DNA of 64,000 nt from the IMG/VR virus record IMGVR_UViG_3300000302_000058; one strand, given 5' to 3'. The notes beneath the pieces are model-generated. The model had not been told where the DNA came from, did no database searches, and saw only the letters and a program-made list of their open reading frames with translations. Shown piece by piece: positions 25,758 to 64,000 of this stretch. A program made the translations under genes and the position numbers. Source of the DNA: an uncultured virus (IMG/VR IMGVR_UViG_3300000302_000058) (taxonomy: Duplodnaviria > Heunggongvirae > Uroviricota > Caudoviricetes). Within the stretch, counting starts at the first letter, position 1; each line of letters starts with the position of its first letter.

Positions 25758-27470
25758 ATGGCTCTAGTCAAATTTGTTCGTGGTACTGCCGAGCAGTTTG
25801 TAACTCTTGACAGTAAAAACCAAGATACGCTTTATATTATCACAGATGAACAGCGTTTATATCTTGGCGATAAGTGTATTTCTGGCGGTATTTATACTTC
25901 TGTGCCTTCACTTCCCGGCACAGGCGCTCCAAATACCCTTTATCTAAATACTACTGATGGTTCTGTTTCCTATTGGAACGGTACTGGTTATACAACTCTA
26001 GTCAAGCCTAGCGCTACTGCTATCTCTAATGGTAGCACTCATAATCAGTTCGCTACCGCCAAAGCGGTTTATGACTATGTAACCTCTCAAATCTCTGACT
26101 TAGACGTATCTGCGCTTGCCGGTCGTGTTTCCACCCTCGAAGGACAGATGGGTACTGTTCAGGGTCAAATCGCTACAATCAATGGCGAGGGCGAAGGCTC
26201 CATCAAGAAAGCTGCTTCTGACGCTCAGACTGCTGCTATCGCTGCTGCTAAGTCTTATACTGACGGAGAAGTAGCTAAGAAAGCCAATCTTGAGCACACT
26301 CACGAGATTGATGATGTAACTGGTCTACAGGGCGCTCTTGATGGTAAAGCTAATGCTACTCACACTCACACTACTGCTCAAGTAGATGGTCTTGACACTG
26401 CCCTAGCCGGTAAGGCTGATAAGTCTACTACACTAGCAGGATATGGCATTGGTGACGCTTATACCAAGGGTCAAACTGATTCTGCCATTGCCACTGCTGT
26501 TGCCGCTGCTCCGCACCTAAAGCGCTCTATCGTAGAAGACCTTCCTGACGCGGGTTCTGCTGACCAGAATACCATCTATATGGTTGGTACTGGTGCTGGC
26601 TCTGAAGATTCTGCTTACGAAGAGTATATGCTTATCAACGGTGCCTTTGAAAAAATTGGCAGCTCTAAGGTAGACCTTACAAACTATGCTGAGAAAACTT
26701 ATGTTGATGCTGCTAAACAAGAGGCTATTTCTACTGCCGCTGGCGATGCTACTACTAAAGCCGATGCCGCCGAACAAAATGCTAAGACCTACGCAGATGG
26801 TCTAATTGCTGGTCTTGATGTTGCTGATACCGCTGTTGCTAATCAGTACGTCTCTCAAGTAGTTGAGACTGACGGTAAGATTGCTGTTACTCGCGCACCT
26901 CTTCCTGTTACTTCTGTAACTGAAGGTTCTGCTAACGGTACCATCGCTGTCAACGGCGCAGATGTAAATGTTCACGGTCTTGGTTCCGCAGCCTACACTG
27001 AATCTTCTGCTTACGATGCTGCTGGTGCTGCTGCTGCTGCTGTTGCCGCCCTCGATAAAGCTGACTCTGCTCAGGAAGGACAGTACGTTAGTGCTGTAAG
27101 CCAAGAGAACGGTGTAATTACTGTTACTCGCGCTCAACTACCAACTGCTCCTGAAATTACTGAGGGTTCTGCTAACGGTACTATCGCTGTCGGCGGTGAA
27201 GACGTAAAAGTTCACGGACTAGGCTCTGCTGCCTTTACTGAGAGCGGCGCTTATGCTACTGCGGCTCAGGGTACAAAAGCTGATACTGCTCTACAGAAAG
27301 CTGATATTGCTAGTGGTTCTGCTAATGGAACTATCGCAGTAAAAGGCACTGATGTTGCGGTTAAGGGACTTGGAACAGCTGCTTATACCGCTTCTACAGC
27401 TTACGCAACTGCCGCACAGGGCACAAAAGCTGACGAAGTTTATGCTGCTCTAACTTGGGGAACTATCTAA
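25758..27470 (+). CDS. Fibre protein with internal repeats
   Basis: HTH...VTGLQ.ALDGK repeats; three GSANGTIAV.G.DV.V.GLG.AA repeats. Confidence 0.75.
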   Translation: MALVKFVRGTAEQFVTLDSKNQDTLYIITDEQRLYLGDKCISGGIYTSVPSLPGTGAPNTLYLNTTDGSVSYWNGTGYTTLVKPSATAISNGSTHNQFATAKAVYDYVTSQISDLDVSALAGRVSTLEGQMGTVQGQIATINGEGEGSIKKAASDAQTAAIAAAKSYTDGEVAKKANLEHTHEIDDVTGLQGALDGKANATHTHTTAQVDGLDTALAGKADKSTTLAGYGIGDAYTKGQTDSAIATAVAAAPHLKRSIVEDLPDAGSADQNTIYMVGTGAGSEDSAYEEYMLINGAFEKIGSSKVDLTNYAEKTYVDAAKQEAISTAAGDATTKADAAEQNAKTYADGLIAGLDVADTAVANQYVSQVVETDGKIAVTRAPLPVTSVTEGSANGTIAVNGADVNVHGLGSAAYTESSAYDAAGAAAAAVAALDKADSAQEGQYVSAVSQENGVITVTRAQLPTAPEITEGSANGTIAVGGEDVKVHGLGSAAFTESGAYATAAQGTKADTALQKADIASGSANGTIAVKGTDVAVKGLGTAAYTASTAYATAAQGTKADEVYAALTWGTI

Positions 27471-38183: not shown

Positions 38184-41100
38184 CTAATCACCAAGCTTGT
38201 TTAGATGGTCGTGTTTTACACGGTCTTCTGTCTCTGCTTGTTTTCCTTTATTAAAAGCTGTCTTATAATTGCCGGTTAAATATCCTGTTACTCGACGAAG
38301 TTGCTGAATATTTTCACTCCCACACTCAGGACATTCATCATTAAATTCGTCACAGTATCCGCAGTCTAAACAAGTATCATTAGGAACATTAACGGCAAAA
38401 TAAGGAATGTCTTTATCCATAGCATAGTTTACAATAGTTTCAAGACCATCAATATTATTTTTAACAGTTCCTTCAAGTTCAACATAGGTAATACAGCCTG
38501 CTGAGCTATATCCTGTAAGCTGTGATTCAATATCAATCTTTTCAAACGGGGTAAGTTTGTGCCATACAGGAACGTGAATGGAATTTGTAAAATAGTCGTG
38601 GTCAGATACGTGTTCAATCTCACCATACCTAGCCTTGAACTTTTTCATTGCTGTATAGCAAAGATTTTCAGCGGGAGTATAATATACTCCAAAGTTTAGT
38701 TTGTATTCTTGTTTAAACTCTTTGCAACGCTTTTGGAACAAGGCTTCAATTTGCTTTGCTAGTTCCATTCCTTCTTCAGTTGTTTGGTCTGTCCCAATAA
38801 GAAGTTGAAGAGTTTCTGCTAAAGCAATCTGTCCAATAGCAAGAGTTCCGTGTTTCATAGCACTACGGATTCCCTCTTCGGGAATGTAACCTTCCATCGT
38901 ACCATTTTCCCACATAAACTTTGCAGCTTCAGGAGATTGAGAGCAAATCCAATCAAAACGCTCGATAAGCATATCTTTGGCTTCGTGAATCTTTTGGTCA
39001 AGAAGATTCATAAAACTATTAACATCGCAATTAGCTTCCATTGCTAAAGTTGGAAGAATGATAGTGACAGGACAAATATTACCACGTCCATCTTTGCGTT
39101 GTTCAAAACCGTTAATATCATACCCGTTATAAGTTCTACACGTATTATCCTATGTCACCATAGGTACTGACTATATCTTCTATTCTATTAGAATAGCCTT
39201 CCGCTTCGAGCTAGTGCCTATCTCTAGCTCTACTCCCTTACATTCATCAGGGATAGTCGATACACTTTAGTTTATTTTTGTAATTTGATATTGTCCTACC
39301 GTGAAAACTTTATCGTATTTATACGCTTTAGCGGCGAAAGCGTGCGGCTTAGTTTGATAAAAAACTTCTGCCGAAGTATAACTGGGAAACATATGAAATT
39401 CACCAGTATTTAAATCGCAAACTTGAATAGGTTGTGCTCTAGTTGACCCTTTTCGAACACTAAAATCACGATAGTTTTCTTCAGCATAGGCGAATGCCCA
39501 TTGCTCCTTATAAAGACATTTAGTCTTGCCAGAGCATCTTCTAGTGATAAAATTATGATTGCTCTCTTTAAAATACTGCTGGCACTCTGATAGACTATCA
39601 AAGAATAATTCTTCTTGCGTATTTATATTTTTACATTTTACTTTTTTAGCCGCAGGATTTTTACCGCCTAATTTAGAGTCTCTAATTTTAGAGGATATTT
39701 GTTGCATTTCTTGTTCAGTTTTATTTAGATATGTATTACCACCGCATTTAAATATATCGTGAGTTTCGTTATATCCGTCCTCACATGCGTGATAATACCC
39801 AATCCAATAATATTCTTTTTGAGTTAGCTCTTCTTGAGATTCAGCTGTATCAATTACTTCAGCAACAAAATTTTCTACTCCATACTTTCGTAACGCTCTA
39901 GCAAAATGAGTATCTAATCGACCTGATAAAGCATCTTGTTTGTGTCGATTAAAACGCTGCTCTAAAGAATTAACTGTTTGTCCAACATAAACTTTATTGT
40001 TAATAATATTAGTAATTTTATATACTATCATTTGGGCATCCTTTCTATAGTGTTTATACTATATATGAAAAATGTGCCGCACATTTATCACTATTATGCC
40101 CAAAATTCTACAAAAATAAACTCTTAGCACGGTCTCAACTTATAAAGTCCTAACCGTTAGCCCGCATAGCGGACACCCTCGGGCGAGGTTCAAAAGGTTT
40201 TATATGAGCTGTAGTTTTCACTTACCCATAGTTCCCATATAAGTACAAGGGTCATTTTTATCATATCCTTCATTAACAGACCAATCAATATTGGCATAGT
40301 TAGGATAAAGTCGCTGAGCAGTAGACTTTAAAGCTAAACGGTACAAGTCATAGTTAGGGTCGTTAGGATGTTTATTAATTCCTTCTCCTATCTGAAAAAT
40401 ACCACACGGGAAAATACTTGTGCGATGTAGTTTTCCAAGCCCCTCAATAGAAACTTCAAGTAAAGCTCTAATTACCATTCTACCCTCTGGTAATGTGCAA
40501 GTGCCATAGTTAATGCTAGTAAAAGGTAATTGATTTCCAGACCTTGATTGTAGCGTATTAAGATTGTGATACATTCCTTCTACAGCCTGATGTGTTTCTT
40601 GAATGGTCTTATCCATTGCATATTTATACGCTTTTGGCTGAAGTTTATATTCATTATCTTCAATATTAGCATCTTCTGGAATATGTTTAGCATACTCGTC
40701 AATATTAAAAGCAAAATCATCTACGCAATATTTTAGTCCGTCAATAAAATGCTTCCTAAAGCTTTTACGAACATATGGTACCATAGTCCAATCAAGATGG
40801 GTAGCAGATACTCCTCCAAACTGCATTAAGCTTTGTAGTTGAAAAATAACTGCTACAAGCTGAAAAGCAGTATTAATAGAATTGGCTGGGCGAACATCAG
40901 TTTGTCTTGTCGTAAAACCTTTAGCAAGAAGTTTGTCAAAAGGAATCGAAAGGCAATTATGGTCGCCAAGAGCATAGTGAGAAAGGTCGTGAATATAAAT
41001 CTCATTATTAAGATGATTGTCTCGTGCCATCTTACTCATAAGGTGATTAAGAGCGTATTCACGCAAAACTTCATCCGCAACCTCTCCCATTCTGCCGCCG

Positions 41101-41480
41101 AAAGAATGTTCGTCCACGTTGGCATTTTGATTTTGAACATTTGAGGCAAATAACTTAGAAGCAATTGTATCATCAAAAGCTTGTTGATGTTTCTTTTGTC
41201 GCTCTAATTCGTGCTCGTAGCGATAACGGATATATGCCTTAGCAACATTATAATAACCCATTTCCATCAACGAGCGTTCAACAATATCTTGAATTTTTTC
41301 CACTTCAATAGCATCACTTAGTTCTTGATAGGCGTTAATATATCCCATTATATGAGCAAGAACTCCGTTGTCATTACATTCTTGCCTATTTACGTCTTGA
41401 AAAGCACCATTAACAGCATTTTGAATCTTCTGCTTATCAAATGGAACTGTGCGGCCATCACGTTTGATAACCGTATTCAT
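38184..41480 (-). CDS. nrdD: Class III ribonucleotide reductase, 2 exons (41480-40224 + 39140-38184)
   Basis: ATP cone, NQLPFTSINYG, spliced YMGTMG|CRTYNG, TPAENL, RRVTGYL. Confidence 0.92.
39267..40031 (-). CDS. Intron-encoded GIY-YIG homing endonuclease
   Basis: IVYKITN...VYVGQT...R...E.YWI...GYN; NUMOD-type C-terminus. Confidence 0.9.
   Translation of the reverse strand: MIVYKITNIINNKVYVGQTVNSLEQRFNRHKQDALSGRLDTHFARALRKYGVENFVAEVIDTAESQEELTQKEYYWIGYYHACEDGYNETHDIFKCGGNTYLNKTEQEMQQISSKIRDSKLGGKNPAAKKVKCKNINTQEELFFDSLSECQQYFKESNHNFITRRCSGKTKCLYKEQWAFAYAEENYRDFSVRKGSTRAQPIQVCDLNTGEFHMFPSYTSAEVFYQTKPHAFAAKAYKYDKVFTVGQYQITKIN
40060..40101 (-). promoter_or_regulatory. Putative phage-specific promoter inside the intron, upstream of the HEG
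   Basis: gggc ataatagtga taaatgtgcg gcacattttt catatatag. Confidence 0.55.
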
Positions 41481-45400: not shown

Positions 45401-46446
45401 GTCAAGAATCTCCATAGAGTTAGCACAAAGTTCCTCGTAATTTAATCCAGTTCCTTCAAGATTGCGGCGAATCTCTTCTTCTGATTGAAGATAGCAATAT
45501 TCGTAGAAAGAATCTACTTCTCGTTCACCTTCTTTGGAGTTAAGAAAAGCCTTGTGAACAAAGCGGTCTTCTTTACGAAGATAGTGAGCATCTTCGGTAA
45601 CGCAGATGGGAAGACTAAATGNNNNNNNNNNNNNNNNNNNNNNNNNNNNNNNNNNNNNNNNNNNNNNNNNNNNNNNNNNNNNNNNNNNNNNNNNNNNNNN
45701 NNNNNNNNNNNNNNNNNNNGCGGACATTCGCTTGTTCACAGTAATCTGTTCATCTGAACAAGCAGATTGTACCTCTAGAGAAACATTATCTTGACCATAA
45801 GTATTGATACACCATTCAAGGAAACGGACAATTTTTTCGTGAGCTTGCTTCTCACCTGCAATGTTTCCAAGAGTCTCAGCTTCAGTCAGCTCTAGAATAG
45901 CACGGTCAAGTTCAGAACCAAGACAAGCGGTCGAAGCGTAGATGTGTCCTTGACCATATCGCCGCACAACGTCTTCTNNNNNNNNNNNNNNNNNNNNNNN
46001 NNNNNNNNNNNNNNNNNNNNNNNNNNNNNNNNNNNNNNNNNNNNNNNNNNNNNNNNNNNNNNNNNNNNNNTCTTTAAAGTTGGGACTCGTTCCATTCCTC
46101 TATCATAGTAACTATTCATCCAAGCAATAGATGAAAGTTCTCGAAGCATCTTACAGCCAACAGAGTCTAGTGCTAATAAAACGTGATGCCAATATTGTTG
46201 TCCAGTATTACGGGTATCAGTTAGATAAATTTCATTTCCACGGACTATTTTTATATCAGTATATTTATTTTGTAATCTATCTAACTCAATAAAGTTACCA
46301 AGTGATTCATGGTTAGTAAAGCCTATTCCCGCAAAAGATAATTCGATAGCTCTTTGTATCATTTCTTCAGCACGATTTGTGCTATCTAACAATCGAATAT
46401 TGCTATAGTGGTCATGGTTGTGATAACTAAAACGAGGTATTATCAT
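42440..46446 (-). CDS. dnaE: DNA polymerase III alpha subunit (two N gaps)
   Basis: PHP HNHDHYS, ACLG, DAHY; RGSAAS, PDIDID, HASG, OB-fold end; ATG 46446 overlaps HEG stop (ATGA). Confidence 0.9.
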
Positions 46447-47306
46447 AAATACTCCCATCTATAACCACAAGAAGTTCCGTGCATTCTTGCGGCTCTACAT
46501 ATTCCACTTTTATCCTTAATTCCTAAAGATTGAGCGGCTTCTTTAGCACTATTATACTGAGCAATAAATTTTCCTTCTTTATCTAATTGTTGTATAGCTT
46601 TACTTCGATGCCGGATATTGCGTTTATTGTAATTATCTACCCATTGTTGAATATTTCTTTTATCGTCTTTATATTTCCATAAAAATCCATAGGCACTGTA
46701 TTGTTCTTGTCTACACACATTAGACACCGCACTTTGTAGATAGCCAGAGGAAGAACATTCAGTAGCAGAACTCCATTCCTTTATAAAAGTCCCATCTAAT
46801 GAATATTGTATAACCGGTTTACTTTGCCATTCACTCCATTTTTCTTTTTTCTTTCTATCAACTACCTCTTCATGTGAAACTCCAAGCTGATGTAAACGAG
46901 AACTGATAGTTAAAGGTTGAGCGTTTAAAATTTCGGCAATTTCATTCCGAGAAAAACCTTTTTCCCATAATTCTTTAATTTTTTGAGAAGAATAAGGGGT
47001 TCTACCAGACCCTTCTACTACATAATTATAACCTTTTTGCGGGTCATTAGATTGATATTTTAGAATATATTCTGTTTCTACCCTAAATCTTTCATTATCA
47101 GGACACTCGTCAATTACTTCAAAAATAAAAGAATCAACACCGTATTTTCTAATAGCACAATGTAAATGATATAGACGTCCATGTTTAGAAGTAGGACATA
47201 GTGATTCGCTTTTATGTTCGTTCCATCGTAAAGAAGGCTGCCTAATAGTTTGACCAATATAGATTTTATTGTTCAAAATATTTGTAATCTTATATATATA
47301 GGCCAT
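46443..47306 (-). CDS. Free-standing GIY-YIG homing endonuclease with NUMOD1-like repeats
   Basis: YIYKITN...IYIGQT; two KPVIQY/KAIQQL...G..W units. Confidence 0.85.
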   Translation of the reverse strand: MAYIYKITNILNNKIYIGQTIRQPSLRWNEHKSESLCPTSKHGRLYHLHCAIRKYGVDSFIFEVIDECPDNERFRVETEYILKYQSNDPQKGYNYVVEGSGRTPYSSQKIKELWEKGFSRNEIAEILNAQPLTISSRLHQLGVSHEEVVDRKKKEKWSEWQSKPVIQYSLDGTFIKEWSSATECSSSGYLQSAVSNVCRQEQYSAYGFLWKYKDDKRNIQQWVDNYNKRNIRHRSKAIQQLDKEGKFIAQYNSAKEAAQSLGIKDKSGICRAARMHGTSCGYRWEYL

Positions 47307-48498: not shown

Positions 48499-48557
48499 TT
48501 CTGTTGTAGTTCAAAATCATCAATTAAGATTTGCGGCGTTACGATATCATTCCAAAT
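48486..48557 (-). pseudogene. Orphan duplicate of the recJ 3' end
   Basis: IWNDIVTPQILIDDFELQQKWIF* vs recJ VWDNKVTSQILIDDYEIETKWIF*. Confidence 0.85.
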
Positions 48558-49138
48558 TATACATATTGCCAAGTAAATCCACCAGCGGTTTTTTGCCTAC
48601 CGAGGCAAACGGCAGATATATTTTGATGCAATACACCAGTTATAGACTCGGCTTCTCTGGTGGAAGCATATATTTGATTAGTTTCTACACATAATACTTT
48701 TTTACCATGTATATGAGTATTATAATTAGGATTGTTTATACCGCTCATTTCTTTAGAATGTTTGTCACACCATTCTTTAGAATGACGAAATCCTAATATC
48801 CCCTCACCGCCAGCTGTAAGATTATAACCTTGGTCGTTATCGTTACTATTATAGCATTTTATCCAATACTGTTCTCTTTCTGAACTAATTTCTTGATATT
48901 TTTCTTCTGGTATTAATTCTAAAAGTTGTGCGGAAAAATTTTCTATGCCATATTTTCTAATTGCTCTATGAACATAGCTAGCTCCAACGCCTCCGTATCT
49001 TACCGCAGTTTTATGATGACTTAATCTATTTCGTATATTAATACTTTTGCCAATATACTTTTTGTTATTAATAAGATTCGTTAATAGATAAATACCAGCG
49101 ATTTTTGTTGGTATTAATTTCTCCCCTAAAAAATCCAT
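48557..49138 (-). CDS. Free-standing GIY-YIG homing endonuclease
   Basis: GIYLLTN...KYIGKS; GYNLTAGGEG; NUMOD3/NUMOD1-like tail. Confidence 0.85.
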   Translation of the reverse strand: MDFLGEKLIPTKIAGIYLLTNLINNKKYIGKSINIRNRLSHHKTAVRYGGVGASYVHRAIRKYGIENFSAQLLELIPEEKYQEISSEREQYWIKCYNSNDNDQGYNLTAGGEGILGFRHSKEWCDKHSKEMSGINNPNYNTHIHGKKVLCVETNQIYASTREAESITGVLHQNISAVCLGRQKTAGGFTWQYV

Positions 49139-52110: not shown

Positions 52111-55100
52111 CTACATCACCGGCTGTTCGATATCAAAAGCTGTAATTGGTAATTGTTTATAGTCCCAATCTGTAGCAAAAACTGTTTCGTAGCGACAAGT
52201 TGATTTATCCATTTGCATCCAAAGATAACCTCGGACAAAAGAGCCGCGACGATTCTTGTACACAGAGAGTTTGATGTTTGGCATTGGAAATCCTCTCTCT
52301 GCATATACTTGTAATTTCTCTTGGTCTGTCTCGGTAAGAGGAAGAAGAATGCTACCAAAATCAGCCTTTTCTGCAATTGCTTTACTGCCTTTAAGAAGGT
52401 TTGCGTCTGGTAGTGGGTCGGTTTTTGCACTCGTATAACTCCTATGTTTCCATAGTTACTGACTATATCTTACTCAGGAAAATATCACTGAGAACCCTGT
52501 TTCGGTTTTCAGAGGATTCGTTTCCTAAAACCTCGCTACGTATCAATAGTAGCCCTACTCCCCTGCCTTGCGACTTAGGGGATAGTCGATACACGGCTTA
52601 TTTTGTATTTCTATATTCCCATTGCTGGGTTTTACGATTAAATAATGGAATATCTGGATAAGGTTGTGAACGATAAATTAAACGATTAATATAGCCTATT
52701 TTAAATTGGGGGAATGCGTCGNNNNNNNNNNNNNNNNNNNNNNNNNNNNNNNNNNNNNNNNNNNNNNNNNNNNNNNNNNNNNNNNNNNNNNNNNNNNNNN
52801 NNNNNNNNNNNNNNNNNNNCTTGCAATGAACACATTGTTGCATATTTTTCCCGAATAGAAATTACGTCTTCTCTAGAGGCTACAATTCTTTTTTGTTTTA
52901 TTGCTTCTTTACCAATTGCGATATTTTTTTCAAGTGGTCGAAGCGGATAAGTATCTTTTTTATCGAACCACGTTTTGCCTGTATTAATATTNNNNNNNNN
53001 NNNNNNNNNNNNNNNNNNNNNNNNNNNNNNNNNNNNNNNNNNNNNNNNNNNNNNNNNNNNNNNNNNNNNNNNNNNNNNNNNNNNNNNNNNNGGAGAAAGA
53101 TTATATTGGTCTGCTATCGCTCGCATTGTAGAACTCCCGTTACGAAGTTCTTCTTTTATGGTTTCTACTTGCTCTTGTGATAAGATAGCTCTTGAATGTC
53201 GCTCTCCTTTTAATCCAAAAGTGTCTTGCCCGCCACTAGCAAGGTTATATCCGTGTTCTTTACTATCACTTTGATATTGTTGAATCCAATATCTTTCTCG
53301 TTCATTCAATTGTTCTCGCAAACAACGTTCTAGTATTTCTATATATACATTTTCACGCCCATATTTACGCATAGCTCTATGGACAGGAAGCATATAGTCT
53401 CTTTGCGTTTTTGAATTGAGATTATCTTCGGTGGCATTAGCACTTAACCAGTGCTCGGTTATTCTTCTATAAATATCAGTTGATTGACCAATATAAACTT
53501 TTGAAGTTGTTAAAAAACCAATTTTATATATTCCACATATTTTCTCTCTCATAAAAGAACCTCCTAACTTGATAGTCAATCCTTTTATGAAAATACAAAA
53601 TACATCGCACGGGATTGACTTGATATATATTATACCCATTTTGCCGAATCGTTAAGCAAAAAGTGTTCATATATATTTTAGTTTTCCCCGTTAGCAATTA
53701 TCCAGTTTTGCCCAGATAATTACCCCGCTGATAAACGGATAAGGTGTTATTGCCAATACAAAAAGTTTAGCATTCGTCTGCGTCGCAGACATAATAAAAA
53801 CATTGAAATCGTTAGCTATCTCTTTTAATCTAGTTGATAGAAGCGATAAGATAATATCTTCACGCATCGCCATACCATGCGTTTGATTTGTTACTTCCGT
53901 TAAAAGACCAAGTGAACTATTGAGATAATCAAAAAATACTACTTTGGTGTGGTTAACACGAATATTCCTTTTGATTGTATTTTCTACTTGTTTAATCGTA
54001 TAGTCTGGTAAGATTTCAAGATATAGCGGCGATTCTTTTAGAACTTGTGCGGCTTGAACCATCACGGGGTCAGAAAAAGAAATACGCTGTAGTAAAATAT
54101 CTTCTTCGTTATAACCAGTCAAAAAAGCCAGTGCCATTGTTGTCAATTCCTCTACGTCAAGCTCTGTAGAGATAAACAGCACTGGTTGATTGTTCTTTTG
54201 TACCCATTCCCCATTTTCAGGGTCGAAGATAGCATTACAAGCCATATAGCAAGCATCGGCAAGCATTGAACGGGTTTTCACTTTGTTATCCTAAAGGCTT
54301 TTTATCCTTTAGTTCTTACGGTTTCCCGCAAGGTCGGCATATCTTTTCTGTTTTATAAACAGTCGGAGCCTCTTGGAGATATTATTTCAATCTCTATGCT
54401 CTGCGGCTGGTTTCCCTTCACCTCTGATTAGCATAGCCGAAGCTTTAGCCTTCCAGATTTTTTCTCCGATTTATAGTCGGCAAAACCATTACCGACTCCC
54501 GTAGGAGCACTTCTTAAATAATATTTTCCATATCTCGCTCCACGGGTAATTCCGTTCAATCCTTTGTCTGCGAACGGAGCACCTATTTCAGGCGTCTCCT
54601 CTAATGATGCTAGAACCTCTGCCACACTATCACCAATTCTAAGAGCGTGGTCTGTGGCATTGTCTACATATACATCACGCACAGTAAGTATCTTGTTATC
54701 CACTATGTCCGCAAGCTCGTTTAGTGATATGCGATTTAGATAGTTCTCTTGTTGCTCCTTCTTTTCTATGTCTAGAAGGTTGTCGGGGTCGTAAAGCCAA
54801 GTCATGTCAACTCCGGCTTTGGTGTATCCCCGCAAAAGTGTCATCTTTTTTAAACGACTGTAATAATAATCAAAGTTAGCAATGTCCGCAGTGTTAATAC
54901 AATTCTGTAACCACTCGCTACCCTTTGACTGTTGATATATGCCATAAGATTCTGGGTGTCCTTGAAGATAATCTTCAATTGTCTTTGGGGTAATTCTCTC
55001 TGCTCCCATTTGATGTAGATTAAAAATTGCCCCAAAAGCAACTCTGTGAATCTCAGTTACAAAATCATCTGCCGAGTAAAAGTATTGTCCATCTTCATTA

Positions 55101-55177
55101 AGTAATTTTGGTTGTAATATCGTACAACCAATTACTTGAATCGCCGCACTCGTATCATAATAGTTCGGTTTAGCCAA
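52111..55177 (-). CDS. dnaB: Replicative DnaB-like helicase, 3 exons (55177-54491, 54278-53769, 52431-52111), 505 aa spliced
   Basis: Spliced Walker A APTGVG|KT; FISTE; FFDY; SATQTNA|SAKTDPLPDANLLKGSKAIAEKAD; YKNRRG. Confidence 0.9.
52432..53768 (-). mobile_element. Group I intron 2 in dnaB (with HEG)
   Basis: Exon ends GCT, intron ends G; P10 tttttgtatt pairs with exon agtgcaaaaa; GTATCGACTATCCC / AAGATATAGTC core. Confidence 0.88.
52598..53552 (-). CDS. Intron-encoded GIY-YIG homing endonuclease (N gaps; end uncertain)
   Basis: SD aggagg, MREKICGIYKI...VYIGQS...ERERYWI...GYNL. Confidence 0.8.
54279..54490 (-). mobile_element. Group I intron 1 in dnaB, 212 nt, no ORF
   Basis: P1 GUCGGU/GCCGAC, P10 GGUUUU/AAAACC, P3 UCGGAG/CUCCGA, P7 GaGCAUA/UAUGCC, P9 GAAA loop, terminal G. 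Confidence 0.88.
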
Positions 55178-55189
55178 ACGTTCACCTCC

Positions 55190-57680: not shown

Positions 57681-58595
57681 TTACCCCTTGAGAGTGTTTG
57701 ATTGATTTCCACGCTTAGAATTCAGCCCAACAGTATCGGCTGAATACAAATCAATAAATTGACGCTCTTTAGCGTCCAAATCTTCAGGACTACAGCTTTC
57801 CAATAGCTCGAAAGAAAAATTCCAAACGCCGTCTCGCCGCATAGCTGCATAGAGCTGGTTGGCGTTACTCGCGGGCATAGCTCCCAAGCCGCACTTGATA
57901 TGGTCTATCCATCTTTTCTTGATGCTCTTGGATTGCCCAACATAACACTCTTGTGTTAGTTGGTCTGTAATCTTATAAATGCCGCACACTTCATCTTGCC
58001 CTAAAATACCAGATAAGAAAGCTTTCATTTTCTTTTGGAAAAATACAGACCAAATACACTTACCTAGAACTTCAGGAAATTTTAGTTTAGGCATAATGTT
58101 ATTTAGATATTCAACATCATGAATTTCATCGTCGGCCATAGGTACACAATACTTATCTGGCTGTTCTTGAACTTCACGTTCCTTTCGAGCGGCTTCTATA
58201 GCGGCGTCTCGTGTGCGTTTTAAAGAATCAAGCTCTTTTTGAACTTGCTTTTTTTCGTCTTCTAAAACTTGAACAAAAGATTCATAATCTGAATTTTGTT
58301 GATTGGCACGTCGTTTATACTCAACATCCAAAGCCTTAATCTTTTCATCATAAGCTTTTTGAGCAGACTGCTGAGCATCTTCAATCAATTGTTTTTTAGA
58401 TTGATATTCACGTTCGATTTGACTTATCCAAACTTGCTTATCTTGAATATCCTTTTCAATTGCTTGACGTTGCCGCAAAACTTCATCATTATTCAGTTGT
58501 TCTTGATGTGTTACAGTCTTTTGTCCTACAAAAAAGCTAATGACAATTAAGACTAAGGATGCCGCGATAATGCCAATTAAAATCGCGGCATCCAA
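57681..58595 (-). CDS. TM + coiled-coil + C-terminal GIY-YIG nuclease
   Basis: AAILIGIIAASLVLIVISFFVG; ~120-aa coiled coil; GIYKIT...YVGQS...RW...E. Confidence 0.8.
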   Translation of the reverse strand: MDAAILIGIIAASLVLIVISFFVGQKTVTHQEQLNNDEVLRQRQAIEKDIQDKQVWISQIEREYQSKKQLIEDAQQSAQKAYDEKIKALDVEYKRRANQQNSDYESFVQVLEDEKKQVQKELDSLKRTRDAAIEAARKEREVQEQPDKYCVPMADDEIHDVEYLNNIMPKLKFPEVLGKCIWSVFFQKKMKAFLSGILGQDEVCGIYKITDQLTQECYVGQSKSIKKRWIDHIKCGLGAMPASNANQLYAAMRRDGVWNFSFELLESCSPEDLDAKERQFIDLYSADTVGLNSKRGNQSNTLKG

Positions 58596-58917: not shown

Positions 58918-61005
58918 CTAATGAGGTACACAACCGACATTCTTACCCTTAGTTCCAAGAGTGGCTAGATGTTCGGTTGGTTTTTTAGAAGTTTGAATAG
59001 AAAAGACAGAATCCTCTTTACCAAGCTTAATACCAACTCGTCCTGTAGACGCTTTACCGCTCGCTTTAAGAGCAGAAATATCGCTACAAAGTTCGTACCC
59101 TTCGACGCTGTTAAAAGTAAGATATTTATCTTCGGACGTAATTACAAACAATACTTCATTCTTAGGGAAATAATCTTGCCCCTTAATATTCTGCGTAGTG
59201 CCGTTAAATAGCGAAGTATTAAACTTTTTGATGCGACCAGATTTTGAAACAGCGATAACATCTTTATCCTCGCCGCACGCCGCAATCATTCTGATGTGCG
59301 TTAATCCAGTTCCAAGAATTGTGCCAAGGGCAGTGCCTTTTTCAGAAGCAAGACATTGTTTAATATTGCTTACCTTTAAGCGATAAACTTTCTTCGTGTT
59401 GTATATTTGGATATACCCATCTGTAGTAGTTTCTATACATCCAAGATTGCCGCTTGCCGGACGATACTTCGCGGCTGGAACGGACTTGATATAACCATTG
59501 TCGGTATAACATACAACAACAGACTCTATAGCTTTTTCTTTCTTTGTCTTTTGGGGTGCGATAATCTCTTTTTGAATAACTTGTGTGCGACGTTGAGCAG
59601 AATATTTTTTAGCAAAAGCTTTAAGATTTTTGATTAGCAACTTTTTTTGTCTATCAGAAGAGTCTAAAATCTCTTGAATCTCAATCGCATCTTTTCTTTT
59701 TTGTTCTAGTTCGTTTAGAATCTCTTGTTCTTCTAGATGTGCTAATCGACTAAGCTTTAATCCTAAAATAGCATCTGCTTGACGCTCTGTTAGTCCTAGA
59801 TTATTGACCATATATTCTTTAGCTTCTACTGAGCTATTGGAGTTTCTAATAAGATTAATGACATTATCTATACCCTTATAAGCTCGTTCTAGTCCTTCTA
59901 GGATTTCAATGCGATTGAGGGTCTTATCTAAATCATATCGATATTGACGCTGTATACACTCTATATTATGCTTAGTATAAATCTCGCACATATCTTTAAG
60001 GGTAAGCAAAGATGGTGTTTTAGAAACAATCGCCATTTGATTAATATCATACTGATTCCTTAAAGGCGTATATTGAAAAAGTTGATTTAAAACATCTTGA
60101 GAATTAGCGCTTGCCGTACAAGTAACGGTCAGTAAGATTCGCTTTTTATCGCTCTTATTGTTTACTTCTTTAATGCCAGTAAGTTTACCGTTATCAATTC
60201 CTTCTTTAATCTTTTCAATAATAGGTTCAATATAAACCTGAAAAGGAAACTCAGTAAAGTTAATATCTTGCTTGTCGATAAAATACTTAGCTTCTACAAT
60301 TATTTTGCCCTTACCAGTTTTGTTGATTTGTGATAAATCATTTTTATTTACAATCGTAGCCCCAGTAGGAAAATCAGGATAGTAATTATCATTATCAACT
60401 TCACCAGTTTTAATATAGTTGATAAGAATATCTGCTGTCTCTTGGAGATTATGTAATGTCCATTCTGTAGCAATACCCACACCGATTCCTTGAGCGCCAT
60501 TAACCAAGAGACGTGGAAAAAGAGCGGGAAGGACTTTCGGCCATTCTTCGTCTTCTGAGAAGTTAGGAATCATGTCTACTACATTTTTATTGATATTTTG
60601 TAGCATTCCTTCTTCAGCTATTGGAGACAATCGAGCTTCACTGTAACGGTCTGCGGCGATAGCATCTCCGCCGATAATAACGTTGCCATTAGCGCCGTGG
60701 AAATCAACTTCTGGGTTATTGTTAGAAAATGGCTGAGACATGCGAGCGAATGTCTCATAGATAGCAGTAGTGCCATGTGGCCAATAGTTAGCAGCTACAA
60801 GCCCATCAATCTTGGCAGATTTGACATGCGGTTTAGCACTAGTAAAGCCAGCTTTATACATACTCCAAAGACATGCTCGCTGTCCCGGCTTTAGTCCATC
60901 GCGTGCGTCAGGAAAGCTCTTGTTGTTATTCGTGTCTGTTGCATATACTAAGAAGTTTTCGCCAACTTCGTCTAGTGTATCAACTTTATTCATAGTCAAC
61001 TTCAA
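58918..61005 (-). CDS. gyrA: Type IIA topoisomerase subunit A (GyrA/ParC-like)
   Basis: PDARDGLKP, PHG, AADRYSEARL catalytic Tyr, NGAQGIGVG, PDFPTG. Confidence 0.9.
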   Translation of the reverse strand: MKLTMNKVDTLDEVGENFLVYATDTNNNKSFPDARDGLKPGQRACLWSMYKAGFTSAKPHVKSAKIDGLVAANYWPHGTTAIYETFARMSQPFSNNNPEVDFHGANGNVIIGGDAIAADRYSEARLSPIAEEGMLQNINKNVVDMIPNFSEDEEWPKVLPALFPRLLVNGAQGIGVGIATEWTLHNLQETADILINYIKTGEVDNDNYYPDFPTGATIVNKNDLSQINKTGKGKIIVEAKYFIDKQDINFTEFPFQVYIEPIIEKIKEGIDNGKLTGIKEVNNKSDKKRILLTVTCTASANSQDVLNQLFQYTPLRNQYDINQMAIVSKTPSLLTLKDMCEIYTKHNIECIQRQYRYDLDKTLNRIEILEGLERAYKGIDNVINLIRNSNSSVEAKEYMVNNLGLTERQADAILGLKLSRLAHLEEQEILNELEQKRKDAIEIQEILDSSDRQKKLLIKNLKAFAKKYSAQRRTQVIQKEIIAPQKTKKEKAIESVVVCYTDNGYIKSVPAAKYRPASGNLGCIETTTDGYIQIYNTKKVYRLKVSNIKQCLASEKGTALGTILGTGLTHIRMIAACGEDKDVIAVSKSGRIKKFNTSLFNGTTQNIKGQDYFPKNEVLFVITSEDKYLTFNSVEGYELCSDISALKASGKASTGRVGIKLGKEDSVFSIQTSKKPTEHLATLGTKGKNVGCVPH

Positions 61006-64000
61006 CCTCCTCAGAGTGTGCTAAGNNNNNNNNNNNNNNNNNNNNNNNNNNNNNNNNNNNNNNNNNNNNNNNNNNNNNNNNNNNNNNNNNNNNNNNNNNN
61101 NNNNNNNNNNNNNNNNNNNNNNNNNACACGTGGCTTAACAGCTTTGCCGTATAGCATTTCAAATTGCTGTTCTGTTTTATCTTTATCGCTAACTTCTAGT
61201 TGTACCATATTTCTAGTATTGGGGTTGAGCAAAGTATATTCAAGCTCTTCTGAATCCATTTCACCCACATATTATTCCTCTGTCACCAGAGGTACTGACT
61301 ATTTCTTCTATGATTATATAATCATAGTCTACCGTTTCAGATTACGTATCAATAGTAATCCTACTCCCCGACAAAGGGGATAGTCGATACAGGTTACGGT
61401 TGTATATGTTGATAGGTTTTATTTCTATAAATATTAGTAAAATTTTGTTTAGGAATTTCTTTATAATCTTGATATATAGAATTTAACGATTCACCTTGTT
61501 TAGCTCTTCTTCTAATATCAAGTATTTTTTCTTTTGAAACGTTATTATTACTCTTAGAGTTTCTAATATATTTATAAAAGTCTTTATTTTCTGTAGTATA
61601 TACGTCCATATGTATATCTTGCCAACTATATCCGTTCCAAATTTTCTTAAACCCACTTGTTCCTATTTTATCTTTAAATTGTTCGAAGATATCTTCTTGC
61701 ATCAAATGGTTTTTATAACATTCTCTAATGTAAAAAACTTCTTCATTAGTTAATTGAGTTTTAGGATGCTGTTCATCTTTTATGTTATCTCTAGCATCTC
61801 CTCCGGGGGTTTCATTATATCCATGAAAATAAGTGTCGTATAATTCAATGTATTTTATTTCTAAATCATTTAAACGCTCTTTGGATGTTTCCTCTAAAAC
61901 CTCAAATTTAAAATTACTTAATCCATATTTTCTTATTGCTCGATATAATGCTTTTTCATATTCTTTTCCAGCTGAACAATAAGCTCTCTTTTTATGAGAT
62001 TTCCATCTATTTTCTATATCTGTGCTTTGTCCAATATAGGAATGACCATTGATGCGATTTGTAATTTTATAGATACCTATCATATTAAATTCACCTTTCA
62101 TACTTATCGTAGAAAGATGATATACTATACAACCGTCTTCCCACGAGATTATCTTCCTATTATATATAAAGTTTCTAGCCCCTATTTTATTCAATATTGA
62201 CCAGAAGCAATAAAAAGACTTCCTCGTTAGCCGCAATTAAGCGACCCCGCTGATAAACGGAAAAGTAGATAAGGGCCAGACTATCTCTTACCCTTTTAAT
62301 CTTCCAATAGATTGAATCTTCTTACCATTCTTCTTTTGGTATTCACTTAGAGCAGTCTCATCTTTTAAATAGATATATTCATTCTTCTTAGTAGTTACTC
62401 TAAATAACGGTGGAATAGTTGAATATACATGTCCATTTAAAAGAAGTTCTGGACATATATACCACAAAATGTTGAACAGAAGATTCTCAATTGCCGCACC
62501 TGCTGGGTCAGCGTCAGTACAGGCAATAATTTTATTATAACGAAGTTTATTTTTATCATAGACAAGATGATTGTGACTGTCAAAATCCAAACCAAGAGCA
62601 ACGATAAGATTATTTACCTCTTGATTTTTTAACAGCTTATCCATCGTTGTTTTACGGGCAGAAATCATCATGCCCCGAACACCATAAATAGCTTGCGTCT
62701 CAGAATCACGTGCGGCCACAAGACCTGACATAGCACTTTTACCTTCGCAAATCAGTAGCTCTGCTTTACTTCTATCTTTAGTCCAAGCATCTACCAGTGT
62801 TGTTGGAAGTTTAAACACCTTGTCTTTTTTCTCAGCCTTTTTCTTTACTGCTTCGCGAGCCTTTTTAGCAGCTTCAGCCGCACGTCTAGCAAGCAAAGCT
62901 TTTTCGATAATCTTGCGGCCATCGTCGGGGTTGTTATCCAACCAAACTTCTAGTTGTTCACTAAAGACTTCGTTAAGGAATGGAACAAAATCTTTACTCA
63001 CGATTCGACTTTTAGTCTGGGCATCGTAAGAGATATTAGGCGAAACAAGATTAAAAACTAGCACTAATCCTTCTTGCAGAGAATCGCCATCTAGATTTTT
63101 ATCTTTCTCCTTTAGGATATTTTGTTCACGTGCCCATTTATTCATAATCTTGGTAATACAAGTCTTAATTGCGGTAATGTGTGGCCCCTGTTCTGTAAGT
63201 CCATAGTTCACATAAGCCACGATATGAGAGGAATTCTTGTCTGCATATCCTAGGCCGCAATCAATACTATATTTATCTTGTTGCTTTTGGAAAAAGAAAG
63301 GTTCTGAAATGGATTTATCTTTACCAGTAATTTGATTGACGAGATATCGCAGCCCCTCGGGATGATAAATCTTTTCTACCTTCTTATCGACAGAAAAGAT
63401 TATTTGTAGACTTGGGCACATGCCGCAAATATCATGGAACATTTTCCGTAAAAGATTAATATCTGGCAGGGGGGTTTCAAAAAATTCTTCGCTAGGTTTA
63501 AAAACGATAGTCGTACCGGAAAAGTGGTCTAATTTACCTCGTTCTCTTTTTTGAAAGACACCTTCTTTAAAAGTAATTTTTTCATAAGAAGAACCATCAT
63601 AAGAGGTAACAATAAAATAATGTGCAAGGAAGTTTGCGGCTTTACCGCCGACTCCGTTTAAACCAAGACTTGTGCCACCATATACGCCATCATCTGAATA
63701 TTTACCAGAGGTATTGATTTCATCAAATGAAGCTTGAAGAATTGTCTTACCGTCTTCTCGATGTTCCAAAAGAGGGAAACCTTGTCCTTGGTCAGAGACA
63801 ACACATTCTCCTGTTTTAGTATTGATTCCGATTTCAATCACATTACCGTGACCAAGATTATGTTCATCAAGAGCATTAGAAAAAAGCTCTACCAAGAGCT
63901 GTGTTGAATCCTTGGTAGAGCCTACATACATACCGGGCCTAAGCCGCACGTGCTCTAAAGGAGATAACGATTGAATTGAGTCTTTATCGTATAAAGTCTT
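60986..64000 (-). CDS. gyrB: Type IIA topoisomerase subunit B, 2 exons (>64000-62290 + 61267-~60986); starts beyond window
   Basis: RPGMYVG, E..SNALDE, GLNGVG, CEGKSA, DADPAG, spliced RLKG-L-GEM; post-gap frame LAHSEEVEVDYE*. Confidence 0.9.
61394..62083 (-). CDS. Intron-encoded GIY-YIG homing endonuclease
   Basis: SD aaaggtg; MIGIYKITN...YIGQS...GYNETPGG. Confidence 0.85.
   Translation of the reverse strand: MIGIYKITNRINGHSYIGQSTDIENRWKSHKKRAYCSAGKEYEKALYRAIRKYGLSNFKFEVLEETSKERLNDLEIKYIELYDTYFHGYNETPGGDARDNIKDEQHPKTQLTNEEVFYIRECYKNHLMQEDIFEQFKDKIGTSGFKKIWNGYSWQDIHMDVYTTENKDFYKYIRNSKSNNNVSKEKILDIRRRAKQGESLNSIYQDYKEIPKQNFTNIYRNKTYQHIQP
62161..62202 (-). promoter_or_regulatory. Putative phage-specific promoter inside the gyrB intron
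   Basis: ggtc aatattgaat aaaatagggg ctagaaactt tatatata. Confidence 0.5.

What the first reader, a model, noticed from the sequence alone, without database searches (positions are those of the whole stretch)
54279..54490. Near-minimal 212-nt ORF-less group I ribozyme with a variant P7
Seen: P1, P10, P3, P8 and a GNRA-capped P9 are all present in 212 nt. P7 is G-a-GCAUA/UAUGC-C rather than the GACUA/UAGUC of the other three introns, with compensatory changes. Known: the Azoarcus intron (~205 nt) is among the smallest. Inference: a distinct compact subclass that standard models may miss, possibly mobilised in trans by a neighbouring GIY-YIG; attractive for RNA engineering.
Basis: partly seen in the sequence, partly recalled or inferred. 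Interest (0 to 1): 0.7.

Follow-up and report, generated by a model that had tools for sequence, protein, structure and literature searches.

The report
Small self-splicing intron in phage helicase
A 212-base group I intron without a gene of its own splits the ATP-binding motif of a gut phage's replicative helicase; it is real and compact, but it is an ordinary member of a large phage intron family that is already known.

Summary
On the minus strand, window 54490..54279 is a 212-nt insert. It follows a U, ends in G, and splits the Walker A codons (APTGVG|KTRS) of a DnaB-like helicase. A helicase profile runs straight across the junction (positions 365|366), and 5 of 7 related loci are intron-less at exactly this point. 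Covariation across 36 relatives supports them (96% of cells paired against 34-40% in slid controls).

Rfam does miss this intron. But the GCAUA/UAUGC P7 is not a new subclass. It marks a large family: at least 109 viral and 52 bacterial stretches. That family includes the terminase intron of Lactobacillus phage JCL1032, which is published as self-splicing. It probably also includes Bacillus cereus prophage introns filed under subgroup IA1. Other members are 211-217 nt long.

Mobilisation by a neighbouring endonuclease is plausible. All 3 alleles that carry this intron also carry the intron with a GIY-YIG endonuclease gene 510 bp downstream. None of the 5 alleles that lack it has an intron at that second site.

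No RNA junction was seen, so splicing is inferred. Verdict: a new member of a known kind, of low-to-moderate interest.

The parts
54491..55177 (-). Helicase exon 1 (DnaB N-terminal domain up to the Walker A residues ...APTGVG). The last base, 54491, is the U of the splice-site U.G pair.
   Evidence: Pfam DnaB. PHROG 19 profile positions 156-365. The start codon is not verified; the ORF list gives TTG at 55177.
54279..54490 (-). The 212-nt group I intron without an ORF (intron position p = 54491 - p in window coordinates).
   Evidence: Intron-less alleles join exactly here.
54475..54487 (-). Internal guide sequence. Positions 4-9 (GGUUUU) form P10 with 3' exon AAAACC (54278-54273). Positions 10-16 (GCCGACU) form P1 with exon 54497-54491.
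   Evidence: Read directly from the sequence. The outermost P1 pair changes A-U to U-A, on exon and guide together, in the same-site intron of L110/L126.
54363..54469 (-). P3 (22-27 with 123-128). It encloses the P4-P6 domain and the 5' strand of P7. There is no P2: only AUAAA lies between P1 and P3.
   Evidence: All 6 P3 pairs show changes on both sides; 99.5% of cells are paired.
54424..54456 (-). P4 (35-38/64-67), A-rich J4/5 and J5/4, P5 (41-43/59-61), and P5a (47-49/54-56, UUCG loop). The internal loop CUAAA/UAUG resembles a GAAA-tetraloop receptor.
   Evidence: Covariation. The receptor-like motif goes with a GAAA loop on P9 in 17 of 17 sequences.
54405..54422 (-). P6 (69-71/84-86) and a minimal P6a (75-76/81-82) capped by GAAA. 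This is the main place where the intron is shorter than its relatives.
   Evidence: The three P6 pairs vary on both sides. In relatives P6a is 5-9 bp.
54395..54401 (-). P7 5' strand: G90, bulged A91, GCAUA (92-96). G92-C154 is the presumed guanosine-binding pair.
   Evidence: Invariant in the family, but by ascertainment. One compensated variant, GCGUA/UACGC, occurs in L117/L118.
54376..54394 (-). P7.1 hairpin (97-101/111-115) between P7 and the 3' strand of P3. It is followed by the conserved CAAGAG.
   Evidence: 4 of 5 pairs show changes on both sides; 100% of cells are paired.
54348..54362 (-). P8 (129-134/138-143).
   Evidence: All 6 pairs show changes on both sides.
54336..54341 (-). P7 3' strand UAUGCC (150-155), preceded by J8/7 AAAAGA.
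54315..54332 (-). P9 (159-165/170-176) capped by GAAA.
   Evidence: 5 of 7 pairs show changes on both sides.
54279..54312 (-). P9.1 (179-185/194-200) with the conserved loop AUAAAAAG, then the tail GAUAACAAAGUG ending in the terminal G (54279).
   Evidence: 6 of 7 pairs show changes on both sides.
53769..54278 (-). Helicase exon 2 (KTRSMLADAC ... SATQTNA), 170 codons.
   Evidence: PHROG 19 profile positions 366-507. tblastn to intron-less L125.
52432..53768 (-). Helicase intron 2 (1337 nt, canonical GACUA/UAGUC core). It carries a GIY-YIG homing-endonuclease ORF at about 53552-52701. Parts of it are masked as N.
   Evidence: Pfam GIY-YIG, sequence, and junction set by contiguous exons 2 and 3 in L125.
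52111..52431 (-). Helicase exon 3 (SAKTDPLPDANLL...).
   Evidence: tblastn: contiguous with exon 2 in L125, L129 and L130.

Best explanation
This is a genuine group I (IA-type) self-splicing intron with no ORF. It sits inside the Walker A codons of the DnaB-like replicative helicase of an uncultured gut phage related to SPbeta.

Inferred mechanism: the pre-mRNA folds into the P1-P10 architecture. An external guanosine bound at the G92-C154 pair of P7 attacks after U54491, which lies in the P1 U.G pair. The terminal G (54279) then takes the same site, and P10 aligns the 3' exon for ligation. This restores ...APTGVG-KTRS... . A second intron 510 nt downstream must also be removed to make the full helicase.

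The intron belongs to the widespread phage and Bacillota intron family typified by the JCL1032 terminase intron. It is compact because it has no P2, a 2-bp P6a and a short P7.1 loop. Having no endonuclease of its own, it most likely persists by descent and spreads as a passenger: co-conversion during homing of the neighbouring intron that carries a GIY-YIG endonuclease.

Shown here: boundaries, fold, family membership and optional presence. Inferred: catalysis and the route of mobility.
For: Boundaries:
- PHROG 19 (DnaB-like helicase) aligns exon 1 to profile positions 156-365 and exon 2 to 366-507.
- 5 of 7 related viral loci (L125, L127-L130) read ...[PS]-[TS]-G-V-G directly followed by K-[TS]-R-[ST] with nothing between (APTGVG|KTRS in L125 and L128). 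Two loci (L124, L126) hold the intron.

Fold:
- On 36 relatives, 96.2% of 1801 cells pair against 33.6-40.2% with slid partners. 37 of 52 pairs change on both sides. 0 of 500 shuffles reach the observed values.
- RNAalifold on 32 relatives, without this sequence, finds the same helices: 47 pairs, 37 with compensatory changes.

Membership:
- The leave-out model R2 scores the window at 179.3 bits and the JCL1032 intron at 122.1 bits.

P7 and P1:
- The only genuine P7 variant found is compensated, A-U to G-C.
- P1 has a compensated exon/guide change in L110/L126.

Tertiary contact:
- A GAAA loop on P9 goes with the receptor-like P5/P5a motif in 17 of 17 sequences. The 14 sequences with long P9 loops all lack that motif.

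Mobility:
- All 3 alleles with intron 1 (window, L124, L126) also have intron 2 at the same site. None of the 5 alleles without intron 1 has an intron there.
- Exon DNA is identical between the window and L124 from joined-exon position 654 to 727 around the intron-1 junction (699), about 45 nt upstream and 28 nt downstream. It differs from intron-less L125 at 7 of 30 bases there, against 149 of 1527 overall.

Literature:
- JCL1032 introns are cited as self-splicing (seen only as a reference entry and one sentence in PMC6669764).
- Homologous B. cereus prophage introns are filed as IA1 (passages of PMC2504315).
Against: - No splicing was observed. All four runs laid were assembled contigs and none showed a joint across 54279-54490.
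- Rfam's group I model gives no match at all.
- P7 is invariant in my alignments because the search pattern required it, so its pairing rests on complementarity plus one compensated variant (two identical loci).
- The pseudoknot-free minimum-energy fold pairs the P7 5' strand with positions 55-61 instead (CUAUGCU/AGCAUAG, -7.5 kcal/mol against -4.3 for P7). That is a possible misfold.
- The first in-frame stop lies 20 codons into the intron, so ribosomes could run into P3-P5.
- The co-occurrence of the two introns may simply reflect shared ancestry of three related alleles.
Confidence: 0.9

Rival explanations
1. A structurally distinct new compact subclass of group I ribozyme, defined by its variant P7.
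For: No Rfam match even at E<=10. P7 differs from the GACUA/UAGUC of the window's other three introns at two adjacent pairs. The intron has no P2 and a minimal P6a.
Against: The same P7 and core are found in at least 109 viral and 52 bacterial stretches, and in the published JCL1032 intron at 122 bits. Homologues have been filed as IA1 since 2008. Members of 211-217 nt exist.
Confidence: 0.05
2. A decaying, immobile relic intron. It lost its endonuclease gene and some peripheral helices, splices poorly or needs a protein helper, and is kept only because losing it imprecisely would destroy the Walker A motif.
For: No ORF. P6a and P7.1 are shorter than in the same-site relative L110/L126, which is 242 nt. 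A competing 7-bp pairing exists. The in-frame stop comes late.
Against: Every core helix is intact with canonical pairs. The window and L065/L124 differ at only 3 places in the intron, and one of these keeps a P5a pair (A-U to G.U). Short GNRA-capped P6a also occurs in L038 and L098. A replicative helicase that is presumably essential depends on accurate splicing.
Confidence: 0.12
3. The intron moves on its own by reverse splicing into sites that match its guide sequence, rather than by hitch-hiking with a neighbour's endonuclease.
For: This intron and the JCL1032 terminase intron both sit at a GGU|AAAAC junction in the G-K codons of a Walker A motif, and they share the guide core GUUUUGCCG. 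8 of 98 distinct family members have a 3' exon that starts with AAAAC.
Against: Exon sequence differences cluster at the junction, which fits DNA-level co-conversion. Reverse splicing leaves no such tract (passage in PMC2504315). The shared junction could be chance or convergence on a conserved motif.
Confidence: 0.15

Closest known systems
Group I intron in the terminase large-subunit gene of Lactobacillus delbrueckii phage JCL1032 (Riipinen & Alatossava 2004; seen only as a reference entry and one citing sentence)
   Same: Same core: AGAGCAUAG ... CCA(A/C)GAG ... AUAUGCCGA, a P7.1 hairpin, the P9.1 loop GGAUAAAAAGCC and the tail GAUAAC. No P2 and no ORF. Inferred length 226 nt. It is inserted at GGU|AAAAC in Walker A codons and has the same guide core. 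It scores 122 bits with my leave-out model.
   Different: Different host gene (terminase, not helicase). It has the other type of P4-P6 domain (ACCGAGAUAAC type, with a longer P6). It is 14 nt longer. blastn identity is about 71% over the 3' half only.
IA1-class introns of Bacillus cereus-group prophages (TMP-IVS3, term-IVS1; Tourasse & Kolsto 2008, PMC2504315, passages read)
   Same: The paper reports them as homologous to JCL1032 and staphylococcal phage introns, and many lack an endonuclease gene. My blastn also hits tape-measure and terminase introns of Bacillus, Caldibacillus and Staphylococcus ROSA-type phages.
   Different: I did not align those sequences here, so the link goes through shared relatives. 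The subgroup label IA1 is theirs and was not tested here.
Same-site helicase intron in viral contigs L110/L126 and L065/L124
   Same: Identical insertion point, and the same P1 and P10 logic. L065/L124 differs from the window's intron at 3 places (211 nt).
   Different: L110/L126 is 242 nt, with a 7-bp P6a and an extended P7.1. So the window's form is a trimmed version.
Azoarcus tRNA-Ile intron (about 205 nt; recalled, not tested)
   Same: Similar size, with GAAA tetraloop-receptor bracing.
   Different: By recall it belongs to a different subgroup (IC3), has a P2 and no P7.1, and lies in a tRNA rather than a protein-coding gene. No sequence comparison was made.

Membership tests
Group I intron | 5' splice site after a U that forms a U.G wobble pair in P1 with an internal guide sequence | tested here: met
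   Exon AGUCGGU pairs with intron GCCGACU. A compensated exon/guide change occurs in L110/L126.
Group I intron | Terminal G at the 3' end, and P10 pairing of the guide with the 3' exon | tested here: met
   G at 54279. GGUUUU/AAAACC gives 6 bp.
Group I intron | Canonical order P3-[P4-P5-P6]-P7-P3'-P8-P7'-P9, with a P3/P7 pseudoknot | tested here: met
   Covariation on 36 sequences. An independent RNAalifold run on 32 sequences gives the same helices.
Group I intron | Guanosine-binding G-C pair in P7 beside a bulged nucleotide | tested here: inconclusive
   The motif G-a-G...C-C is present and invariant. One compensated change occurs at the third pair. Binding itself cannot be tested here. That this is the canonical geometry is recalled.
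Group I intron | Match to the curated model (Rfam RF00028) | tested here: not met
   No match at the gathering score or at E<=10. Three relatives, including the published JCL1032 intron, also give none. PMC11878797 (passages) states that the Rfam model is incomplete for phage introns.
Group I intron | Precise excision restores the host reading frame | tested here: met
   PHROG 19 positions 365|366. 5 of 7 related loci are intron-less at exactly this point.
Group I intron | GTP-dependent self-splicing | not testable with these tools
   The laid runs were contigs and showed no joint.
JCL1032-type phage/Bacillota intron family (GCAUA/UAUGC P7) | Conserved core blocks and helices P3-P9.1 as modelled from relatives | tested here: met
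   Leave-out model R2: 179.3 bits over positions 1-211 of 211.
Subgroup IA1 (Michel-Westhof / GISSD) | Subgroup-specific peripheral helices (an extra helix between P7 and the 3' strand of P3) and a match to the subgroup model | not tested
   A single P7.1 hairpin is present. GISSD models are not available here. The IA1 label is taken from PMC2504315, which applies it to homologues.

The most novel reading that the evidence does not exclude
The intron is a passenger with no endonuclease that travels in a two-intron convoy. The GIY-YIG enzyme of the intron 510 bp downstream cuts intron-less helicase alleles, and repair copies both introns across. In addition, the family's shared guide core (GUUUUGCCG) pre-adapts it to the G-K|T codons of Walker A motifs. 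That would explain why close relatives sit at the same GGU|AAAAC junction in unrelated ATPase genes: terminase in JCL1032 and helicase here.
Probability: 0.3. Interest if true: 0.45.

Novelty: new member of a known kind. Interest (0 to 1): 0.25.

Why it matters
- Annotation: the helicase of this phage, and of similar gut phages, would be called as two or three broken ORFs unless the introns are recognised.
- Detection: Rfam's group I model finds none of the four introns seen in this window, nor the published JCL1032 intron. A family-specific model recovers this one at about 180 bits. That is a concrete gap in a standard tool.
- Ribozyme work: natural members of 211-217 nt with a defined tetraloop-receptor brace are convenient small scaffolds, but they are not smaller than ribozymes already in use.
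- Intron biology: this helicase gene carries introns at four or more different sites among relatives. With intron-plus and intron-less alleles both in hand, it is a tidy natural system for testing co-conversion hitch-hiking.

Tried and rejected
- Rfam at three settings gave nothing for group I. I treat this as a limit of the model, not as evidence against an intron.
- No whole genome is held for this window.
- RNA evidence: no run held half or more of the sampled words of the stretch. I laid four runs labelled RNA or possibly RNA (X11, X17, X19, X20). All were assembled contigs. None joined across the intron. One contig from a run that is probably DNA spans the intron unspliced, and one true-RNA contig covers 54364-54437 of a relative. 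This says nothing either way about splicing.
- P7 variants: scans that freed one P7 3'-strand base at a time gave 4 hits at position 153 (none an intron), 3 at position 152 (2 genuine, identical to each other and compensated), 4 at position 151 (none an intron) and 0 at position 150.
- Window scan with models R1 and R2: no second copy of this family (best other hit 9.9 bits).
- The minimum-energy fold's alternative helix 55-61/91-97 was rejected as the native pairing. It would destroy both P5/P5a and P7, which are supported by covariation and conservation.
- My automatic search for P3 partners and core lengths mis-parsed several loci, so I use it only as a rough ranking: window core 185 nt, 12th shortest of 111, median 207.
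- A P9.0 pairing (A157-U211, C158-G210) looked possible but could not be tested, because the 3' splice sites of other members are not known.
- Searches of earlier findings by place gave nothing.

Full report
**What is there.**
All genes in this part of the window lie on the minus strand. Two ORFs, 54428-55189 and 53691-54290, carry the N-terminal and C-terminal domains of a DnaB-type helicase. Read on the minus strand, exon 1 ends ...GCU CCU ACG GGA GUC GGU (APTGVG). After 212 nt the frame resumes AAA ACC CGU UCA (KTRS). So a Walker A motif has been cut between its G and K codons. The insert runs 54490..54279. It is preceded by U and ends in G.

**The boundaries are exact.**
The PHROG 19 helicase profile aligns exon 1 to positions 156-365 and exon 2 to 366-507. 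A search for relatives of exon 2 in viral contigs gave 7 loci.
- Five of them (L125, L127, L128, L129, L130) read ...[PS]-[TS]-G-V-G directly followed by K-[TS]-R-[ST] with nothing between.
- Two (L124, L126) hold an intron at the same point.
- L125 is 98-100% identical in protein and has all three exons contiguous. That also fixes the second intron at 53768..52432.

**The fold.**
By hand I found the following (intron numbering):
- P1: exon AGUCGGU with positions 10-16.
- P10: positions 4-9 with the 3' exon AAAACC.
- No P2.
- P3: 22-27/123-128.
- P4: 35-38/64-67.
- P5: 41-43/59-61.
- P5a: 47-49/54-56, UUCG loop.
- P6: 69-71/84-86.
- P6a: 75-76/81-82, GAAA loop.
- P7: G90-C155, bulged A91, 92-96/150-154.
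- P7.1: 97-101/111-115.
- P8: 129-134/138-143.
- P9: 159-165/170-176, GAAA loop.
- P9.1: 179-185/194-200.
- A tail that ends in G212.

All pairs are canonical. The nested part has -55.5 kcal/mol against an unconstrained minimum of -61.2. That minimum uses a competing helix, 55-61/91-97.

**Relatives and covariation.**
blastn against phage genomes matched only the 3' half, at 70-86% identity. The matches lie in introns or unannotated gaps in terminase, tape-measure and other genes of Staphylococcus, Clostridioides, Clostridium, Enterocloster, Bacillus and Lactobacillus phages. They include the two-piece terminase gene of JCL1032.

It found 52 in species-representative genomes, mostly Bacillota, some at ribonucleotide-reductase sites.

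I aligned 36 members whose 5' half resembles the window's. This was a selection: 55 such loci, less duplicates, less loci where my P3 search failed, and with the window added. On this alignment:
- 96.2% of 1801 cells pair, against 33.6-40.2% when partners are slid.
- 37 of 52 pairs change on both sides.
- No shuffle out of 500 reaches the observed values.

RNAalifold on 32 sequences, leaving out the window, L065, L110 and the 3'-truncated L063, predicts the same helices independently. A covariance model built from those 32 scores the window at 179.3 bits over its full length. It scores the JCL1032 intron at 122.1 bits and finds nothing else in the window.

**P7.**
I freed one 3'-strand base at a time. 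Only one genuine variant appeared, in L117 and L118, which are identical to each other. It reads GCGUA/UACGC, so A94-U152 has become G-C on both strands. Complementarity, the bulged A next to the G-C pair and this one compensated change together support the pairing. The three other introns I examined in the window (helicase intron 2, gyrB, nrdD) have GACUA/UAGUC.

**A tertiary brace.**
The P5/P5a internal loop (CUAAA/UAUG here; CUAAG/UAUG in L065 and many others) resembles the GAAA-tetraloop receptor. That consensus is recalled, not tested. In the 36-sequence set:
- All 17 sequences with this motif have a GAAA loop on P9.
- All 14 with long P9 loops (8-19 nt) lack the motif.
- 5 have a 4-nt GNRA loop on P9 but did not match my motif regex.

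**Size.**
Using splice sites that I inferred from P1 and P10, the lengths are:

| Locus | Length (nt) |
|---|---|
| L065 | 211 |
| Window | 212 |
| L038 | 214 |
| L098 | 217 |
| JCL1032 | 226 |
| L110, same helicase site | 242 |

The window's intron is a trimmed form. Its P6a has 2 bp where L110 has 7, and its P7.1 loop is short. It lies at the short end of the family but is not unique.

**Known or new.**
Rfam misses this intron and also misses JCL1032. A 2025 paper (PMC11878797, passages read) says the Rfam model is incomplete for phage introns. Tourasse & Kolsto 2008 (PMC2504315, passages read) describe Bacillus cereus prophage introns that are homologous to JCL1032 and to staphylococcal phage introns, and class them as IA1. 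JCL1032's introns are cited as self-splicing; I saw only the reference entry and one sentence. So this is a new member of a known kind.

**Mobility.**
The intron has no ORF. Its helicase gene is an intron hot spot:
- The window, L124 and L126 have introns at sites 1 and 2.
- L127 has an endonuclease-bearing intron 15 codons beyond site 2.
- L128 has one inside exon 2.

Intron 1 is found only together with intron 2: 3 of 3 carriers, against 0 of 5 non-carriers with an intron at site 2. These alleles are related, so the counts are not independent events. Exon DNA near the junction is identical among carriers. It differs from intron-less L125 at 7 of 30 bases there, against 9.8% overall. This fits co-conversion during homing driven by the GIY-YIG enzyme of intron 2. 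It also fits selection for P1 and P10 pairing.

**Context.**
The nearest cultured relatives of the helicase are SPbeta-type Bacillus phages, at 34% protein identity. Runs that hold parts of the stretch are animal-gut metagenomes, but their shares are small. I therefore name no host.

Noticed in passing
window 52432-53768 (-): Second helicase intron, 1337 nt, with a canonical GACUA/UAGUC core. It carries a GIY-YIG ORF with a strong AGGAGG ribosome-binding site before the ATG at 53552. Two stretches of the ORF are masked as N.
   Followed up: partly
window 38184-41480 (-): The anaerobic ribonucleotide reductase gene nrdD is split (Pfam NRDD 2-263 and 292-562) by an intron. The intron holds a GIY-YIG ORF (39267-40031) and a GACUA...UAGUC core at 39273-39169, which recalls the T4 nrdD/sunY intron.
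   Followed up: partly
window 61000-62290 (-): A GIY-YIG ORF (61394-62236) and a group I core (61390-61297) follow gyrB (62288-63949). The core is nearly identical in its P7-P3-P8 region to helicase intron 2. It appears to split off the C-terminal end of gyrB.
   Followed up: partly
window 39267-62236: Six ORFs with GIY-YIG domains lie within about 23 kb: 39267-40031, 46443-47306, 48557-49138, 52701-53639, 57681-58595 and 61394-62236. The one at 46443-47306 sits between the PHP domain and the main body of a DNA polymerase III alpha gene, which suggests yet another intron.
   Followed up: no
L127 and L128 (relatives of the helicase): The same helicase gene carries endonuclease-bearing introns at two further sites in relatives: 15 codons after site 2 in L127, and between residues 115 and 116 of exon 2 in L128. 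That makes at least four insertion sites in one gene.
   Followed up: partly
window 54430-54436 with 54394-54400 (-): A perfect 7-bp alternative pairing CUAUGCU/AGCAUAG would sequester the P7 5' strand. The Staphylococcus phage S-CoN_Ph1 relative (L002) has the same heptamer just downstream of its P7 strand. This may be a folding trap or chance.
   Followed up: no
window 54428-54490 (-): Translation running in from exon 1 meets its first stop only 20 codons into the intron (UAA at intron positions 61-63). Most phage introns stop within about 27 nt, according to PMC2504315. Ribosomes could therefore enter P3-P5.
   Followed up: no
window 54273-54497 (-) and L003: This intron and the JCL1032 terminase intron both interrupt the G|K codons of a Walker A motif at GGU|AAAAC, and they share the guide core GUUUUGCCG. 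8 of 98 distinct family members have a 3' exon that begins AAAAC (K-T...).
   Followed up: partly
L133, L145, L160, L166-L168, L171 (Selenomonadales genome bins): A cluster of family members shares the window's unusual P6 version (GAGGUGAAGG...CCAGCCGC with a 3-bp P6a). Unlike the window's intron, they have a long P2.
   Followed up: no
window 27188-27283 (+): Weak sub-threshold match to the Rfam GP20-b RNA motif (22.1 bits against a gathering score of 36.2, E 2.6) in the structural-gene region.
   Followed up: no
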